This document shows positions 2,138-47,134 of a DNA stretch of 64,000 nucleotides, piece by piece. Location: contig OX597819.1 of NCBI GenBank assembly GCA_951406725.2, forward strand, positions 110,546,001-110,610,000. Direction: 5' to 3'. Every line of letters starts with the position of its first letter. Positions within the stretch are counted from its first letter, which is position 1. The notes below the pieces were generated by a model. It was given only the letters and a program-made list of their open reading frames with translations. It searched no databases and was not told where the DNA came from. A program made the position numbers and the translations under genes. The DNA is from Octopus vulgaris (taxonomy: Eukaryota).

Positions 2138-2185
2138 GAGCTACTTCACTATTGCTATGCTTGTCGTTGATGTATAATTTAGATC

Positions 2186-2835
2186 AGATATTACAACTAG
2201 TACCTCACCAAGTATATATACATACACATTATAAACAGTATTTAAATTTATGGCTGTTACAAGTGCGTATAACAATTATAACCTGGCAAGCTTTCGCACA
2301 AATTAGTAAATATCTTGTTTACCGATTTCTATGTGTGAAGGAATACTTTTTGAATTAGATTAGAATGTTCGGAGTATATGTTACTGAGTAGACCAAATCA
2401 AGTAAAAACACCGGTGTCTGGCGATTCATCGACGTTCTGATGGAAGCTCTATACTTTGAACACAACTGTCACTTTGAAAAGTTTTCTCTATGACAAAATA
2501 TTACAGCTAGTACTGCCTCATGTATACGTACACATGAATACATGTTACATATAATGATATTTTAATATATGTCTTCTATTTTCAAGTACATTTGCTGGCT
2601 TAATTGTAGCCTGGCTAGCTTTCATATTAATCAGTAACTCTTTTGCTTACTGGTTCTTATATCGGAACCAGAGGCTTTCGGCTAAACTCATCATGGCCCT
2701 GTTATTTGTCACTGAAGTGACCAGATAAAATCGAAACGCCGTGTCTGGTGATCCTCCAGAAATCTGAGCGAAGCTCTGTATTTTAACTCACAGTTCTCTT
2801 TGGGAAGTTTCTCTGAACCAAAATATAATAGCTAG
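2186..2835 (+). mobile_element. Two diverged tandem ~310-325 bp units, each with a type I hammerhead-like motif (Penelope pLTR or retrozyme-like)
   Basis: Both units contain cctggc(a/t)agctttc, gtgtctgg(c/t)gat, gaagctct and aaaatat...agctagt; hammerhead-like cores at 2379-2424 and 2706-2751. Confidence 0.7.
2706..2751 (+). ncRNA. Type I hammerhead ribozyme-like motif (A9U variant)
   Basis: ttgtca-CTGAAGT-ga(ccagataaaa)tc-GAAAC-gccgt-GTC-tggtga: stem I pairs with G-U wobbles, stem II is GA/TC, and the triplet is GUC. Confidence 0.6.
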
Positions 2836-2869
2836 TGTACACACACACAATTTACACACACAGGCACAT

Positions 2870-2937
<68 letters not shown>

Positions 2938-3009
2938 ACGCACAAACCCCTCCCCACACAAACACACAGGATTACATTATATAGTGCGTATATTCTTGTC
3001 ACTGTTGTT

Positions 3010-4718: not shown

Positions 4719-5564
4719 AATCCAGGTAGTAATGGCGGCAGCGGCGGCGGTGGTGGTGGTAGGGGAATTGTCGTTGCCATCGTCGTTGTCGTTATGAGCG
4801 TCAAAGTAATTGTAGAAGTATAAACGGCACAATGCCACACGCCACCGCGCGTCACCACACACCTCCACGTTTCACAATTCAGCACCACGTGAGCCACGTG
4901 GTACATTCAGATAGATCATGTGTATTGCCAGTGTGAACGTATATAATTTTCTTCAGTAGAATAGTAAAACGAGGAAGGGGAGGAGCGCAGTGAACGCCGG
5001 TAAAATAATGTAATAGAAAGCGAGGGTGGTAGGGTGAGGGAGAGAAGAACAGGGAGGAGGAAAAGTGAGGGGTTTAAAAGAGGGAGAATGAAGGGAGGAG
5101 GAGAAGGAGGGGAAGGGTAGAAGGAGAGCAGTTATAAAGTGTTGTTTTTGCTGTTTAACCCCATGTCAGTACTGGTCGAACAAGAATAAAAATCCAAGAC
5201 ATTCCAGCCGTAACTATCCCGACTTTTCGCACTTTTTCCTAAGCGTAGAGAACTCAGAACCGCGTTAATAATGAATCCAGTCTATCTTTTTCTGTGACTG
5301 TTGGGTGTCATTTAAAAAAGATTTGGTTTTGATGTTTAGCATTTTAGGAGAAACACCCACTTTGGCTTGGCTGGTTGTATTGATGGTGGTGGTCTTAAAA
5401 CTGTTAGAGAGACCTATAACCGAAGGCGTTCCAGCCATATTTAACTGCAGATCTGTTATAGCAAACGCCTGATCCACAGTGTTCCAGCCGTAACCATCTC
5501 GTGCTTTTGACGTTTCAGTCTCTGCTATGCATTACTCCACCTTCAGTAGAGTAGGTTCCAATAA

Positions 5565-5960
5565 CTTTCCTACTCTAGACACAAGGCTAAAAATTTTTGG
5601 GGAGGGTGCCATTCGATTAGATCGGCCCAGTACGCTACTGGTACTTAATTTATCGTTCCCGAAAGGATGAAAGGCAAAGTCGACCTCGGTGGAATTTAAA
5701 CTCAGAACGTAAAGACAGACGAAATACCTATTTTTTTACTACCCACAAGGGGCTAAACACAGAGAGGACAAACGAGGACAGAAAAAGGGATTAAGTCGAT
5801 TTTATCGACTCCAGTGCGTAACTGGTACTTATTTAATCGACCCCGAAAGGATGAAAGACAAAGTCGACCTCGGCGGAATTTGAACTTAGAACGTAACGGC
5901 AGACGAAATACGGCTACGCATTTCGCCCGGTGTGCTAACGTTTCTGCCAGCTCGCCGTCT
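5565..5960 (-). mobile_element. tRNA-derived SINE family A with internal duplication and 12-bp TSD
   Basis: Head ggcgagctggcagaaacgttagc, B-box g(a/t)gttcaaattcc, core gcctttcatcctttcggggtcga; flanked by ggttccaataac at 5553-5564 and 5966-5977. Confidence 0.9.
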
Positions 5961-5994
5961 TAGACGGTTCCAATAACGCATCTGTTTTAATGCA

Positions 5995-6205
5995 GCAAGC
6001 TGGTAGAATCGTTAGCACGCCAAGCAAAATGCTTAGCAGCATTTCTTCCGGCCCTGTACGTTCTGAATTCAAATCCAACCGAAGTCGACTTTACCTTTCG
6101 TCTTTTCAGGGTCGATAAAATAAGTACCAATTAAGCAATGGGGTCGATGTAATTGATTTATCTCCTCCACAAAAATTGCTGGCCTTGTGCCAAAGTCTGA
6201 AACCT
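5995..6205 (+). mobile_element. SINE family A copy, head-to-head with the previous copy
   Basis: gctggtagaatcgttagcacgcc...gtcgactttacctttcgtcttttcagggtcgataaaataagtacc. Confidence 0.8.
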
Positions 6206-6553: not shown

Positions 6554-6852
6554 GTTTAGATTAAGAGCGACTCTAGTCGCTCTTACTTAATATGAAGTCT
6601 GTTAGGACGAAAGGCGAAGCTAACATTTACAGAATTGAAATACAGAGCGCAGAAAGACAGTATAATCACTACAAGGGATTCTGTCCGACTGAACCAAATT
6701 TCCGCCATGTTTTGGACACACACATACACACACACACACATACACACACACACACACACACACATACACACACACAGAGAGAAATAAATATAGGGATAAT
6801 CAAGTTAGACAATATATTAAGTTTTACTATATTAATACATGAAGTACAAGAC

Positions 6853-7246
6853 AGTATGGTAAGAAGCTTGCTTCCCAACCACATGGTTCCGGGTTCAGCT
6901 GCACTGCGTGGCACTTTGCGCAAGTGTCTTTTACTATAGCTTCGAGCCGACTAAGGCCTTGTGAGCTGACTTGGTAGATGGAAACTGAAAGAAGCCCGTT
7001 ATATATATGTATATATATGTATGTGTGTGCGTGTGTGTATACATTTGTGTGACTGTGTTTGCCCCCACCAACATCACTTGACAACCGATGGTGGTGTGTT
7101 TACGTACCCGTAACTTAGCGGTTCGGTAAAAGTGACCGATAGAATAAGTACTAGACTTACAAAGAATAAGTCCTCGGGTCGATTAACTCGACTAAAGGCG
7201 GTGCTCCAGCGTGGCCACAGTCAAATGACTAAAACAAGTAAAAGAG
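6853..7246 (+). mobile_element. SINE family B
   Basis: tRNA-like head tggtaagaagcttgcttcccaaccacatggttccgggttcag, internal TA/TG microsatellite, tail gcggtgctccagc..ggccacagtcaaatgact. Confidence 0.9.
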
Positions 7247-7302: not shown

Positions 7303-7550
7303 ATACATGCATGTATACACACACACACTCACATAAATATATATGTATAATACAAAAGTATCAAAGGTGTCCTTCACCTTTTAAAGACAGTATGCTAAGG
7401 TTTGAGAAAATTTGGTCGCTACATTTAGCAGGCCGGAAAGCCGTGTAGAGGCTTCTTCGTCGGCAGGGATTATACGGACGGAGCGTTGATAATGACTGAA
7501 GTTACATAAAGAGAAAAGAGAACAGTAAGAGTGACGTACATTTGCGAGTT

Positions 7551-7586
<36 letters not shown>

Positions 7587-8366
7587 CATGTGCGTTTATG
7601 AATATGTGCGTGTATGAGTTTATACGGACGTATATGTATGCGTGCACATGCATGCATATAAGCGTGTATGTGTTTATGTGCACGCTTGTAAGTGTTGGCG
7701 GGAAATTCGAGGTGGGTGCCTTAAAGAATACACGGAAGAGGTGGCAGCTCTGCTGGAGTGACGGCGACGGTGGTGGTGATTGTGTGTGTGTCTGTGGGGT
7801 GGGGTTGTGTCGGGTGTGTCGGCTGGTTGTTCCGGGTTCGAACAATAAACGATGCAGGTGCTTCTTCAGCCCAGCCAGCCAGCCAGCAACAAAATACACC
7901 TCCCCCACTTTTTGTCTTCCGTCGATTAAAGAGAATAAAATAGGAGCCCCCCCCACACACACGCCCACACAAACGTCTTCATATTCCTTTTCGGCACCCT
8001 CCGGCCGCCACCACCCAAATGCACCCCCTACCGCACACACTCACGCGCACATATATTTATATATATATATATATATATATACACACGCGCACATATACAC
8101 ATAACATACAAACAATATATACCAACTCACAATTCTATGTATTCCATGACGAGTTCATTATAATACCTCCACGACAACGGCCACTACCACCACCACCACA
8201 ACCACCACCACCACCACCTCCAAAAGCAACAACAACGACACTACCAATACCACCGTCATGGACAGCATCCACTCCAACGCCTCCGCCATTTTCTATCCTC
8301 TACTCCTACCACCAAACACCCAACGCCACTAACACAACCATCATCATCATCATCATCATCATCAGC

Positions 8367-8406
<40 letters not shown>

Positions 8407-8471
8407 GCATAGCCTCCAAAACACCTACCACCACTACCACCACCACCACCACCACCGCCGCAACCGCCACC

Positions 8472-8502
<31 letters not shown>

Positions 8503-9003
8503 TACCCGCTAACACATCCACCACCAAATTCAACGCACCTTACATGACCACACCACCACTACCACACTATCACTACCATCGCAGCTTCCACCTCCGACAA
8601 CGACCTATCGAACATCCACCCCAACGTCACATTCATCTCACTCAACGCCATCCCCACCCCACCTAACCTCGCCACCTTCGCTATCGCCAACTCCACCCTT
8701 ATATCTCCATATATGTATACATATGTTTATTTGTACGTGTGTATAAATATACACGTGTCGGGGTGGCTATGTGTATATTTGAATCGCTTCTGTAATTTGA
8801 TGTGAATGTAATTTAAATTTGCTCGTGCCAGCGTGACTTTGTATGTATGTGTGACCATGTACGACCATTCATGTGTGTGTGTATATGTATACACACATCT
8901 ATATACGCAACCATGCTGTTTTGACGTTACTCTGAATATGTTCTAAATGAGTGCGCACACACACACAGACGCATACACATACACATACATACTCTATGAA
9001 TAT

Positions 9004-15437: not shown

Positions 15438-16037
15438 AGGGCGGCGAGCTGGCAGAATCCTTAGCACACCGGGCGAAATGCTTTGCGATATTTCGTCTGC
15501 CGCTACGTTCTGAGTTCAAATTCCGCCGAGGTAGACTTTGCCTTTCATCCTTTCGGAGTCGATTAAATAACTACTAGTTACGCACTGGGGACTATATAAT
15601 CGACTTAATCCGTTTTCTGTCCTTGTTCGTCCCCTCTGTGTTTAGCCGCTTGTGGGTAGTAAAGAAATAGGTATTTCGTCCGCCGTTACGTTCTGAGTTC
15701 AAATTCCGCCGAGGTCGACTTTGCCTTTCATCCTTTCGGGGTCGATAAGTTAAGTACCAGTTACGCACTGGGGTTGATAAAATCGACTTAATACATTGTC
15801 TGTCCTTGTTTGTCCCCTCTGTGTTTAGCCGCTTGTGGGTAGTAAAGAAATAGGTATTTCGTCCGCCGTTACGTTCTGAGTTTAAATTCCGCCGAGGTCG
15901 ACTTTGCCTTTCATCCTTTCGGGGTCGATAAGTTAAGTACCAGTTACGCACTGGGGTTGATAAAATCGACTTAATACATTGTCTGTCCTTGTTTGTCCCC
16001 TCTGTGTTTAGCCCCTTGTGGGTAGTAAAGAAATAAG
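15438..16037 (+). mobile_element. SINE family A with three tandem 183-bp body units
   Basis: Head ggcggcgagctggcagaatc; units restart at tatttcgtc at 15489, 15672 and 15855. Confidence 0.9.
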
Positions 16038-16094
16038 TTATTTTTACAGAAAATGGACATGAGAGGAAAGCTTTTAATATAAGGTTTTATTTAA

Positions 16095-27619: not shown

Positions 27620-28570
27620 GTTTCAAATTACAGCACAAGGCCAGCAATACTGGGAGAAGAAGTAAGTCAATTACATAGATCAAAGTGCTCAAACGGTTTT
27701 ATTTTATCGACCACAAAAGGATGGAAAACAAAGTCGATCCCGGAGGCATTTGAACCCGGAACGTAAAGATGGAACGTAAATACCTATTTCTTAACTACCC
27801 ACAAGGAGCTTAACACAGAGGGAACGAACAAGGACAGACAAACGAATTAAGTCGATTATATCGACCCCAGTGCGTAACTGGTACTTATTTAAACGACCCC
27901 GAAAGGATGAAAGGCAAAGTCGACCTCAGCGGAATTTGAACTCAGAACGTAGCAGCAGACGAAATACCTATTTCTTTATTACCCACAAGGGGCTAAACAC
28001 AGACGGGACGAACAAGGACAGACAAACGGATTAAGTCGATTATATCGACCCCAGTGCGTAACTGGTACTTATTTAAACGACTCCGAAAGGATGAAAGGCA
28101 AAGTAGACCTCAGCGGAATTTGAACTCAGAACGTAGCAGCAGACGAAATACCTATTTCTTTATTACCCACAAGGGGCTAAACACAGACGGGACGAACAAG
28201 GACAGACAAACGGATTAAGTCGATTATATCGACCCCAGTGCGTAACTGGTACTTATTTAAACGACTCCGAAAGGATGAAAGGCAAAGTAGACCTCAGCGG
28301 AATTTGAACTCAGAACGTAGCAGCAGACGAAATACCTATTTCTTTATTACCCACAAGGGGCTAAACACAGACGGGACGAACAAGGACAGACAAACGGATT
28401 AAGTCGATTATATCGACCCCAGTGCGTAACTGGTACTTATTTAAACGACTCCGAAAGGATGAAAGGCAAAGTAGACCTCAGCGGAATTTGAACTCAGAAC
28501 GTAGCGGCAGACGAAATACCGCTAAGCATTTCGCCCGACGTGCTATCGAATCTGCCAGGTCACCATCTTA
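27620..28570 (-). mobile_element. SINE family A with a tandem array of 184-bp body units
   Basis: Unit boundaries at 27781, 27965, 28149, 28333 and 28517; inner units appear nearly identical; head at about 28520-28570. Confidence 0.92.
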
Positions 28571-31659: not shown

Positions 31660-32200
31660 ATAGCCTGCTCAGTTGTTTCTTTTATAATGAATTAATTTTT
31701 CTTATTTATTCGTGTTTGATTTATGGTATTGCTTATATATTGGTAAAGTGAGAAAACAGGAAATTCGGGAGATTTGGTTTATTCGCATATGTCCAAATGT
31801 TCACTGAGTGGATTTTTTCTAGTCCTGAAATCTCGTATTTGTTGTCGATGAATCGTTAATCTTATACTTAAGGTGAGTTTAGTTTGTACAGTATTATCTT
31901 TGCTGCGTCCATTGCATTTGATGACATATATTAAAGTTTTTGAAGAATAAAACGTGTTTTTCACAGTGACAACTTGATCTGATTTAAATTTACATGTGTC
32001 GTCAACAAGGTTGTCGCAATTTCTGCAATGGGAGCGACCAAACTTTGTAACTGTTAGAGTTGAGTCTGTAGTTGGTAGTTTTGTGTTGGTAAGTAGAGTT
32101 CTTAGAGATTTTTATTGTCTTTTGCATTTCATCTTTTTTGTATGCTTCACGTGCTTTTTATATTCTTGGCTCTATGTAGTTCACCAAGGAATTTCTTTCT
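31660..32200 (-). pseudogene. Penelope-like element GIY-YIG endonuclease remnant
   Basis: Minus strand reads KCKRQ*KSLRTLLT...KFGRSHCRNCDNL, then SSKTLIYVIKCNGRSKDNTVQTKLTLSIRLTIHRQQIR...PLSEHLDIC, matching the PLE pattern RQPxxL, CxxC, IYxIxC...YIGQT...RxxxH...H. Confidence 0.8.
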
Positions 32201-35465: not shown

Positions 35466-36021
35466 TTTGAGCTGAAAATATTTACGCCATAATAATTGTC
35501 AGTATTTTTCTCTTTATATTTATTGTTTGCATACCAGAGAATTTTGCCAATGCGTTACAAGACTGTTTTCTAAGAACGCGAAGTGGAGGTTTTAAAAATT
35601 CAAGTGATATGTGAGATCTTTTTTTTTTTCGGAAGGTCCCATCAGAGGCTCTCCGGCTCCGGGCCGAGCGACTGGCTGAATCTAGACATTTTACGTTTGA
35701 TTTAGCAATCAGTTAAATAACCCAAGCGTTTGAGTACTCAAAGAAGCAGCATTTGGTAGACCGACCGTCGTTTGTTGCTAGCGTTCGTGAGGGACATTGT
35801 GAACACATCCTAGTAAATTTCACCGTAAGTAAGTAAGTAAGTAAGTAAATATTTGGTTCATGAATGAGCAAGATTGTAAAGCAGCAGAACTTATAAAATA
35901 ATAAACATTATAAATCGGATAGCGTCATTAAAAGAAGTAATGTAACGACTAAATTAAAATACTCACCTGAAATAGACTCCAATTGAAATACCGGTGTATA
36001 TAATATTTATAAAGTGTTTAC

Positions 36022-36180
36022 AGGCGTAGGAGTGGGAGTGTGGTAAGCAGCTTGCTTACAAACCACATGGTTCCGGGTTCAGTCCCACTGCGTGGCACCT
36101 TGGGCAAGTGCCTCGGGCCGACCAAAGCCTTGTGAGTGGATTTGGTAGTCGGAAACTGAAAGAAGCCCGTCGTATATATG

Positions 36181-36269
<89 letters not shown>

Positions 36270-36515
36270 GTGCGTGTGTGTGCATGTGCGTGTGTGTGTG
36301 AGTTTGTGTGTGTGTGGTGTGTGTGTGTGTGGTGTGTGTGTGTATGTATGTTTGTGTACCTGCATTTGTCCTCCTAACATCGCTTAACAACCGATGCTGG
36401 TGTGTTTACGTCCCCGTAACTTAACGGTTCGGCAAAAGAGCCCGATAAAATAAGGCGGTGCTCCAGCATGGCCACAGTCAAATGACTGAAACAAGTAAAA
36501 GAGTAAAGGAGTAAA
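36022..36515 (+). mobile_element. SINE family B with expanded internal TA/TG tract
   Basis: Head ggcgtaggagtgggagtgtggtaag and tail aaatgactgaaacaagtaaaagagtaaa. Confidence 0.9.
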
Positions 36516-36528
36516 ATGTAGAACGGTA

Positions 36529-36780
36529 TTAGTTGTAATATTTTTCTCAGCGAAGCTTTTCAACGAGATTAGAGTGTTAAAAATCCAGGGCTTCGCTCAG
36601 AACACTGTGGATCGCCAGATACGGTATTTCGACCTGAATTGTTCTCCTCGTTGACAAATACATCGGACGTTCTGAAGTAACTTGAAATACTTATGCCCAT
36701 ATAGAAATCAGCAAACAAAATATTTACAGATATATACGACTTACAAAGAAACTTCATATTTTTCGCCACGGTGGTAAAAT
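36529..36780 (-). mobile_element. Solo copy of the ~320-bp hammerhead repeat seen at 2186-2835
   Basis: Reverse complement shares tatttgtca, gt.tctggcgat, tctgagcgaagc.ctg.attttaac and aaaatattaca.cta; motif at 36612-36657. Confidence 0.7.
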
Positions 36781-46008: not shown

Positions 46009-46087
46009 TTACATACATAGTTGAATGTAAACAAACACATTTCTGTGCATATATATTCAGACACACACACACACACGCGCATATATA

Positions 46088-47134
46088 GTGGTAGTAGCCA
46101 ATGGGGCCACTTCCATTAACACGCAAATAGTGCGCGGTGTTCCGCAAGGCACTGTTTTGGGACCACTACTGTTCATAATGGCCTTCTTAGACATGCCCTC
46201 AGCCACGCAGAGAGCCACGATCACAAGTTATGCAGATGATACAAAAGTTTCACAGGCAGTACAGAACCCTGAAGACACTAAGCACCTGCAATGTGAGCTG
46301 GACAAAATATACAAGTGGGCTGAAAAGAATAGCATGCAGTTCAATGCTGAAAAGTTTCAAGCTTTATGCTATCAGCATGCAAAACTAATTGCAATACCCA
46401 ATAAATGCACTGGACCTGGAGGGATTGCAATCCCAGAGGCACAATCAGTGCGAGACCTGAGTATTTACATGAGTGATGATGCAACCTTTCATGTGCATGT
46501 TGCTAAATTGGCAATGAAATGTGCTGACCGATGGATTCTTAGAACCTTTAGAACAAGAGACCAGGAAACCATGATGGTCCTCTGGAGGACACTTGTCCTA
46601 AGCCACTTTGACTATTGCTCTCAGCTATGGTTACCATCCAGTGTCAAGTTAATCACAGAACTTGAGGCGATCCAACGAAGCTACACGAAGAAGATAGCCT
46701 CTGTGCAGCATATAAGCTATTGGGAAAGACTCAAGAGATTGAAACTCTATTCCTTAGAGCGTAAGCGAGAAAGATATGCCATAATATACATCTGGAAGAT
46801 CCTAGAAGGACTTGTCCCAAACTTTGGCATCGAGAGTTACACAAATGCCAAAACTGGGCGCCACTGCACAGTGCCAAGGACTCCAAATTTGCCCTCAAGA
46901 TGTAGGACAAGATACTGTGATAGCCTGGGCTTCCGAGGCCCACAGCTCTTCAATATCCTCCCGAAGAACCTAAGAGACCTGCATGGGGTGGATGCAGATG
47001 TCTTTAAAATAAAACTAGATCTCTTCTTGTCAGGTGTCCCAGATGAACCAACTTCACGGCAGGAGGTGCAGATGAGGGCAGCTGCGTCGAACTCTCTCGT
47101 GCACCAAATGGCAATTGCTAAAAAGCATTCGTGA
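46088..47134 (+). mobile_element. 5'-truncated CR1/L2-group LINE; stop-free 348-codon RT C-terminal frame
   Basis: Motifs GVPQGTVLGPLLF, YADDTK, MQFNAEKF, VRDL, DYCSQLW, LYSLERKRER, LFNILP and FKIKLD; no endonuclease domain or RT N-terminus. Confidence 0.92.

What the first reader, a model, noticed from the sequence alone, without database searches (positions are those of the whole stretch)
2186..2835. Retrozyme-like tandem ~320-bp units, one hammerhead per unit
Two diverged head-to-tail units have cores 328 bp apart: tgtta-CTGAGTA-gac...gta-AAAAC-ACCGGT-GTC-tggcga and ttgtca-CTGAAGT-ga...tc-GAAAC-gccgt-GTC-tggtga. Each copy is broken at different core positions, so the implied ancestor (CTGANGA...GAAAC ACCGGT GTC) is canonical. 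Its palindromic stem III, ACACCGGTGT, is the type that allows dimeric cleavage. Cleavage at both sites would release a ~325-nt monomer, in the size range of retrozyme circular RNAs (inference).
Basis: partly seen in the sequence, partly recalled or inferred. Interest (0 to 1): 0.72.

Follow-up and report, generated by a model that had tools for sequence, protein, structure and literature searches.

The report
Fossil hammerhead retrozyme dimer, Penelope-pasted
These two head-to-tail 320-base units are a decayed copy of an old, dispersed non-coding repeat whose family sequence carries a complete self-cutting (hammerhead) RNA motif; it was likely pasted by a Penelope-type jumping-gene enzyme, is a known kind of element, and this copy is predicted to be dead.

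Summary
Two units (68% identical) lie head to tail, cores 328 bp apart. They belong to a dispersed family (93 loci examined; very roughly a thousand copies) with a 320-nt period. The family majority restores a canonical type I hammerhead with a long stem I. No copy examined is tied to a Penelope-like (PLE) ORF. Copies end at two preferred sites about 38 nt apart and often carry an inverted 5' arm (24 head-to-head joins, 1 tail-to-tail): the PLE insertion footprint. The family is extinct: star tree, 79% identity to the majority, best 84%. In this locus unit 1 has lost G8 and G12 and unit 2 has lost A9, so release of the 327-nt monomer today is unlikely. The perfect palindrome ACACCGGTGT is a minority variant. 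A random sample also turned up a young, intact 359-bp hammerhead family with the same footprint. Verdict: a fossil non-LTR retrozyme, a new member of a known kind. Cleavage, circles and the partner PLE are not shown. The scan has noted other families of this kind in this and other genomes before.

The parts
2169..2866 (+). whole insertion, about 2.2 periods of the 320-nt monomer; firm core 2188-2837 (2.05 periods)
   Evidence: alignment to a multimer of the family majority; both ends gappy; the 3' end falls near phase 139, the first preferred family end
2350..2449 (+). unit 1 hammerhead with extended stem I; core 2384-2418; broken at G8 (2389) and G12 (2405); stem III of the longer palindromic form
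   Evidence: sequence; family model R1 79.3 bits (this copy was in the training set)
2678..2776 (+). unit 2 hammerhead; core 2712-2745; A9>U (2718); stem II keeps 2 of 4 pairs
   Evidence: sequence; Rfam RF00163 17.4 bits, below cut-off; R1 65.5 bits (in the training set)
2419..2745 (+). 327-nt stretch between the two predicted cut sites (one monomer)
   Evidence: folded as a circle -74.2 kcal/mol, z -3.2 against 60 dinucleotide shuffles
2241..2275 (+). internal copy of the ~38-nt 'tail' segment (phase 140-178) in unit 1; coordinates approximate
   Evidence: alignment; tail defined by family ends
2560..2603 (+). internal copy of the tail segment in unit 2; coordinates approximate
   Evidence: alignment
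2839..2944 (.). (CA)n microsatellite at the 3' edge, overlapping the decayed end of the insertion
   Evidence: Tandem Repeats Finder
35950..36739 (-). third family copy in the window: 36514-36739 and 35950-36022, split by other repeats, ending at phase 178 (second preferred end)

Best explanation
This is a dead, two-unit insertion of an extinct non-coding 320-nt repeat family whose majority sequence holds a canonical type I hammerhead, and which was likely copied by a Penelope-like element's reverse transcriptase/endonuclease acting in trans (a fossil non-LTR retrozyme). Shown: the tandem units, the family, the 320-nt period, the restored core, two preferred 3' ends ~38 nt apart, head-to-head inversions, no linked ORF in the loci examined, decay of all copies. 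Inferred: tandem transcripts were cut at GUC by paired hammerheads (stem III is too short for a monomer and self-pairs); the monomers would be circularised by a host ligase; a PLE enzyme would start cDNA inside the RNA, 140 or 178 nt downstream of the cut, and read back across the cut site, giving 1-3 unit insertions with a tail and an inverted arm. Whether the template was a circle or an uncut multimer is not resolved. After one burst the copies decayed; this pair was likely inserted as a dimer, not duplicated later.
For: Majority core and geometry: helix I 6 bp extending into a 28-pair stem, helix II 4 bp, short helix III, matching 'canonical' metazoan hammerheads and not PLE minimal ones as defined in PMC4209133. 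One copy (L011) passes the Rfam cut-off, 36.1 against 34 bits. Majority monomer folds as a circle at z -6.0, GC 42%. 3' ends in the two windows: 36 of 90 against 8 of 90 for 5' starts (windows chosen on this set), and 10 of 22 against 3 of 22 in an independent set (Fisher p 0.045). Joins within 150 nt: 24 head-to-head, 17 same-strand, 1 tail-to-tail. 42 of 168 segments exceed one period, 7 reach 600 nt or more, longest 2.8 periods. No shared flank of note among 117 segments. A young 359-bp family in the same genome shows the same footprint cleanly: 20 of 25 head-to-head loci have one arm at each of the two ends. Tail and inverted 5' copy are PLE hallmarks (PMC8557442); the tail equals the gap between two RT start sites (PMC11167929). 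Window pair shares no more changes than dispersed pairs (0.159 against 0.160 +/- 0.053).
Against: No covariation within the family: score 0.201 against 0.208 in shuffles, so the fold rests on the majority sequence and on a few distant relatives with exchanged stem I pairs read by eye. No cleavage, circle or transcript is shown. No partner PLE was found. No long array of this family was found. The ORF test used only six PLE protein pieces from this genome and flanks of about 1.5 kb, so a remote clade could be missed. The reverse complement of the majority also folds well (z -4.9), so folding alone does not pick the strand. Many copies, including the firm end of this one (phase 93), stop outside the two preferred ends.
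Confidence: 0.8

Rival explanations
1. The units are solo or partial-tandem pseudo-LTR stumps of an extinct autonomous Penelope-like element whose ORF-bearing copies are rare or have decayed.
For: Tail, 5' truncation and inverted arms are exactly what PLE stumps show. The genome is rich in PLEs (148 GIY-YIG matches among 150 scored). GIY-YIG or RT fragments lie within about 1 kb of the unit at 2 of 93 loci (L046, L215).
Against: Upstream of a unit lies the previous unit, up to 2.8 periods, not ORF sequence. Both nearby PLE fragments have their own ends and other sequence in between. 0 of 30 GIY-YIG loci hold the unit. Hammerhead geometry is canonical, not the minimal PLE type. No shared upstream flank.
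Confidence: 0.12
2. A dispersed repeat or satellite-like monomer that was duplicated locally by unequal crossing over; the hammerhead is incidental.
For: Tandem Repeats Finder does not list it among the rows shown and arrays are short; no covariation.
Against: The two units are no closer to each other than random dispersed copies. Fixed ends and head-to-head arms point to reverse transcription. All 11 core positions are in the majority, in a fold at z -5.1.
Confidence: 0.05
3. This locus is still a working source of a ~327-nt circular RNA or has been co-opted by the host.
For: Cut sites are 327 nt apart and the stretch folds as a circle at z -3.2. Core positions across copies change somewhat less than the class average (57 against 102 expected).
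Against: Unit 1 lacks G8 and G12 and unit 2 lacks A9; neither folds into the hammerhead as its minimum-energy form. In a strand-swapped dimer each cut would use the other unit's core, so both cores are needed (inference). The matching locus in organism E (about 90% identical) has a further core change at 2385. The lower core rate is partly matched by like contexts outside the core, and the windowed rate is flat at 0.88-1.17.
Confidence: 0.03

Closest known systems
Metazoan non-LTR retrozymes (Cervera and de la Pena 2020, PMC7229834; seen: passages, mussel section, Discussion)
   Same: Non-coding monomer in the 170-400 nt range, GC under 45%, one canonical type I hammerhead per unit, tandem copies, self-paired monomer, co-occurrence with PLEs.
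   Different: This family is extinct and mostly 1-2 units; expression, cleavage and circles are not shown; the main text of that paper does not mention octopus or cephalopods (supplements not seen).
Non-LTR retrozymes as PLE derivatives (bioRxiv 10.64898/2026.07.22.740005; seen: parts 1-3 of 5, abstract to discussion)
   Same: Monomer, dimer and multimer copies; proposed dependence on PLEs; many inactive copies.
   Different: Their definition of an active retrozyme (two consecutive units with complete hammerheads) is not met by this locus. Their evidence is co-occurrence and pLTR homology; here it is the insertion footprint, and no homologous pLTR was found.
Penelope-like element pLTRs with tail and inverted 5' copy (PMC8557442, passages; PMC11167929, parts 1-2 of 4; PMC4209133, part 1 of 4)
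   Same: Two preferred 3' ends 30-40 nt apart, variable 5' truncation, head-to-head inverted arm, hammerhead inside the repeat.
   Different: No ORF; hammerhead has helix I 6 bp and helix II 4 bp (canonical) rather than the 4-5 bp and 7-8 bp of PLE minimal hammerheads.
Rfam RF00163 Hammerhead_1
   Same: One family copy passes the gathering score (L011).
   Different: The window's own copies do not (17.4 bits and no hit).

Membership tests
Metazoan non-LTR retrozyme | canonical type I hammerhead in each monomer | tested here: met
   Met for the family majority and copy L011; 23 of 71 copies pass a core pattern, 5 of 71 also keep at least 5/6, 3/4 and 3/3 stem pairs. Not met by the two window copies.
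Metazoan non-LTR retrozyme | tandem monomers of about 170-400 nt, GC under 45% | tested here: met
   Period 320 nt, GC 42%; up to 2.8 periods in a row.
Metazoan non-LTR retrozyme | no coding capacity, not attached to an RT ORF | tested here: met
   93 loci, six PLE protein pieces as queries, flank comparison; two nearby fragments inspected and found separate.
Metazoan non-LTR retrozyme | highly self-paired monomer | tested here: met
   Majority as a circle -98.8 kcal/mol, z -6.0 (reverse strand z -4.9); window monomer z -3.2. Prediction only.
Metazoan non-LTR retrozyme | two consecutive complete hammerheads (active element) | tested here: not met
   Window units broken at G8/G12 and A9; no tandem pair among 71 copies has two well-formed ribozymes. 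This lowers 'active', not 'member by descent'.
Metazoan non-LTR retrozyme | self-cleavage and circular RNA in vivo | not testable with these tools
   Needs in vitro transcription and RNase R or divergent RT-PCR; only assembled contigs were available.
PLE-mobilised element | 30-40 nt optional tail (two fixed 3' ends) | tested here: met
   Ends cluster at phase 129-145 and 172-181; tail-only pieces at phase 134-139 to 174-179.
PLE-mobilised element | inverted 5'-truncated copy at the 5' end | tested here: met
   24 head-to-head joins against 1 tail-to-tail in 93 loci; not present at this locus.
PLE-mobilised element | sequence shared with the pLTR of an autonomous partner | tested here: inconclusive
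   No match in 30 GIY-YIG loci, seven 10-kb stretches around such fragments or 800 kb of random sequence; most of the genome's PLEs were not examined.
Autonomous PLE pLTR | flanks an RT + GIY-YIG ORF | tested here: not met
   0 of 93 loci in register.
Autonomous PLE pLTR | minimal hammerhead (helix II 7-8 bp, helix I 4-5 bp) | tested here: not met
   Helix II 4 bp, helix I 6 bp and longer against the definition in PMC4209133.

The most novel reading that the evidence does not exclude
The insertion footprints of this extinct family and of the young 359-bp family are direct genomic evidence that animal retrozymes are reverse-transcribed by PLE enzymes from a circular RNA: cDNA starts at two fixed internal sites far from the ribozyme cut and runs across the cut site for up to 5.7 turns. 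The two families would then be successive waves of one related lineage of circular-RNA passengers, and the young one a tractable system in which to test circle-templated retrotransposition.
Probability: 0.3. Interest if true: 0.55.

Novelty: new member of a known kind. Interest (0 to 1): 0.25.

Why it matters
The locus itself is a fossil and matters little. The family adds a probably unreported lineage to a known class and supplies footprint evidence (tail, inverted arm, internal start far from the cut) for the still mostly circumstantial idea that animal retrozymes ride on Penelope-like enzymes. The young, intact family found on the way is the better object for testing cleavage, circles and the partner enzyme.

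Tried and rejected
Young or long arrays of this family: a long exact core pattern gave 0 hits, a 20-mer gave 3; best dispersed matches 67-86% over short and 72-79% over long stretches; the model search scored 150 candidates, all matched, and the listed places show no run longer than three. Covariation within the family: none above shuffles. Subfamilies: star tree, 6 of 48 inner branches supported. Purifying selection on the core after insertion: inconclusive. Partner PLE: 26 tail-pattern hits were all family copies without an ORF; 28 loci of the young family's tail had no PLE ORF hit. Expression: no RNA holder listed for 2186-2837; this is no evidence either way. Target-site duplication: none evident by eye at this locus; not searched systematically. 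Homology between the old and the young monomer: score 57.5 against 30 +/- 6, max 51 in 100 shuffles, weak. The six Rfam Hammerhead_1 hits in the genome are not members of the family; L034 is a distant look-alike. L325 was fetched at a mistyped coordinate and is uninformative. One hand-written structure string was faulty and its energy is not used. Search of earlier findings by sequence returned nothing.

Full report
Observation. The two motifs are at 2384 and 2712, 328 bp apart, with GTC sites ending at 2418 and 2745. The units align at 68% over 310 columns, far above shuffles (169 against 29 +/- 4). A third copy lies at 35950-36739 on the minus strand. Contigs of independent runs cover the locus almost letter for letter, and a run labelled as another organism (X14) holds the matching locus across the 5' junction with 45 differences and 7 gaps in about 490 bases, so the insertion is real and old.

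Setting. The window is G000:C6:110546001-110610000 of a 2.8-Gb assembly in 227 contigs. Size, repeat content and earlier scan notes suggest an octopus; I did not test the species.

The family. DNA, model and pattern searches of G000 gave dispersed copies (41 and 45 matches from 40 scored candidates each; 150 of 150 scored; 26 tail-pattern hits). After dropping duplicate loci I analysed 93 loci with 168 segments. The majority of 71 aligned copies has a 15-nt terminal redundancy and a period of 320 nt; copies are 79 +/- 4% identical to it, best 84%. The tree of 51 long copies is a star; Jukes-Cantor distance to the majority is 0.24, with CpG sites changed in 41% of cells. A repeat annotation of Octopus vulgaris places a PLE and LINE burst at distance 0.2, about 56 million years (PMC13282606, passages); this fits if the organism is related, which is not shown. 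Copy number is very roughly 900: 2 of 69 known tail copies match the pattern that gave 26 genome hits (wide uncertainty). 80 stretches taken at round coordinates (800 kb) held no close copy and only distant relatives at three loci; the reversed control held none.

The ribozyme. The majority reads CUGAGGA, a 4-bp helix II with a 6-nt loop, GAAA, a short helix III and GUC, closed by a 6-bp helix I that extends to 28 pairs. That is the canonical metazoan geometry, not the minimal PLE type (PMC4209133, part 1 of 4). Copy L011 passes the Rfam cut-off. Pairing is kept in 75% of cells against 30-38% for slid partners, but covariation does not exceed shuffles, as expected for copies decaying from one master. 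Distant relatives in L128 keep the core with exchanged helix I pairs (read by eye, two copies).

State of this locus. Unit 1 has G8>U and G12>A; unit 2 has A9>U and half of helix II. G8 changes abolish cleavage (PMC11167929); the catalytic role of G12 is recalled knowledge. Neither unit folds into the hammerhead at minimum energy. In a dimer of type I hammerheads each cut would use the other unit's core, so both are needed to free the monomer (inference). The locus is predicted dead. The two units share no more changes than random dispersed pairs, so they were likely inserted together.

How it moved. Counting from the cut site, 3' ends cluster at 129-145 and 172-181: 36 of 90 against 8 of 90 for 5' starts in the set on which the windows were chosen, and 10 of 22 against 3 of 22 in a set found through the ribozyme region. 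Pieces made of little more than the segment between the two ends occur on their own. Neighbouring segments join head to head 24 times, tail to tail once. A 30-40 bp tail and an inverted 5' copy are described hallmarks of PLE insertions (PMC8557442, passages), and the tail is the stretch between two internal RT start sites (PMC11167929, parts 1-2 of 4). Ends do not fall at the ribozyme cut, and 42 of 168 segments run for more than one period, so the template was a circle or an uncut multimer.

No ORF. PLEs are abundant (148 GIY-YIG matches; RT plus GIY-YIG confirmed by Pfam for L101), but none of 30 GIY-YIG loci holds the unit. Two of 93 family loci have a PLE fragment within about 1 kb; both have their own ends. 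Flanks of 117 segments share nothing of note after masking common repeats; three locus pairs shared short upstream pieces of 29-94 nt. Limits: six query pieces, short flanks.

A living analogue. One of the sampled stretches (L180) holds a young 359-bp array with intact hammerheads, two copies on one strand and five on the other. The exact core occurs 37 times and its tail pattern 96 times. Of 41 loci examined, 25 are head to head, and in 20 of these one arm ends at 178-181 and the other at 219-228; no PLE ORF was found attached. It shows the footprint of the old family without the decay. Similarity between the two monomers is weak.

Comparison and novelty. It works like, and by descent belongs with, metazoan non-LTR retrozymes (PMC7229834, passages and two sections), proposed to be non-autonomous PLE derivatives (bioRxiv 10.64898/2026.07.22.740005, parts 1-3 of 5). 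It fails the 'active' criterion and the pLTR criteria. Searches for 'hammerhead ribozyme' with 'octopus' and 'retrozyme' with 'cephalopod' listed no paper on such a family, and the octopus repeat paper's main text has no 'ribozyme' or 'hammerhead'; supplements and repeat libraries were not seen and may hold it. The scan has noted other families of this kind. Verdict: real, ordinary in kind, dead at this locus; interest 0.25.

Noticed in passing
L180:2097-4768 (G000:C1:20002097-20004768): Young 359-bp tandem family with intact type I hammerheads, 97-100% identity, head-to-head arms ending at two fixed sites, in (TA)n; 37 exact core hits and 96 tail hits in the genome. Runs X22-X24 (RNA by guess only) hold many contigs of it and of variants; no silent control stretch was laid, so this is a weak hint. 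Its tail segment alone is matched by contigs of organism E.
   Followed up: partly
L128:6228-6320 and 7334-7426 (-); L181 about 8150-8600 (-); L171 about 5400-6050 (+); L034:1498-1548 (+): Distant relatives of the 320-nt family; L128 and L034 keep the core with different helix I pairs; probably older sister families.
   Followed up: partly
L101:4297-6087 (+), repeats at 1930-2385 and 6717-7172: Young autonomous PLE with RT and GIY-YIG and 99% identical 456-bp pseudo-LTRs; many 781-aa open frames of this kind in the genome. No canonical hammerhead pattern hit in L101.
   Followed up: partly
window 31680-32150 (-): Broken GIY-YIG fragment of a PLE, not linked to the repeat.
   Followed up: no
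window 46031-47134 (+): 367-aa open frame with a reverse transcriptase domain (Pfam RVT_1).
   Followed up: no
window 11874 (-) and 55671 (+): Two further hammerhead-core-like patterns unrelated to the family.
   Followed up: no
window 5627-5911, 15489-16043, 27778-28520: Tandem 183-184-bp units of a very common repeat, with an inverted copy at 6054-6160.
   Followed up: no
L313:2281 (-) and L315:3184 (-): Another hammerhead-bearing family related to the 359-bp one (67-79% identity in parts).
   Followed up: no
L031-L033, L036; L005:2415 (-), L012:729 (-), L078: Other hammerhead families in this genome, some with very long helix II.
   Followed up: no
L014:578-901 and L060:1087-1398: Two family copies on C15 are much closer than average and share upstream flank: probably a segmental duplication.
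   Followed up: no
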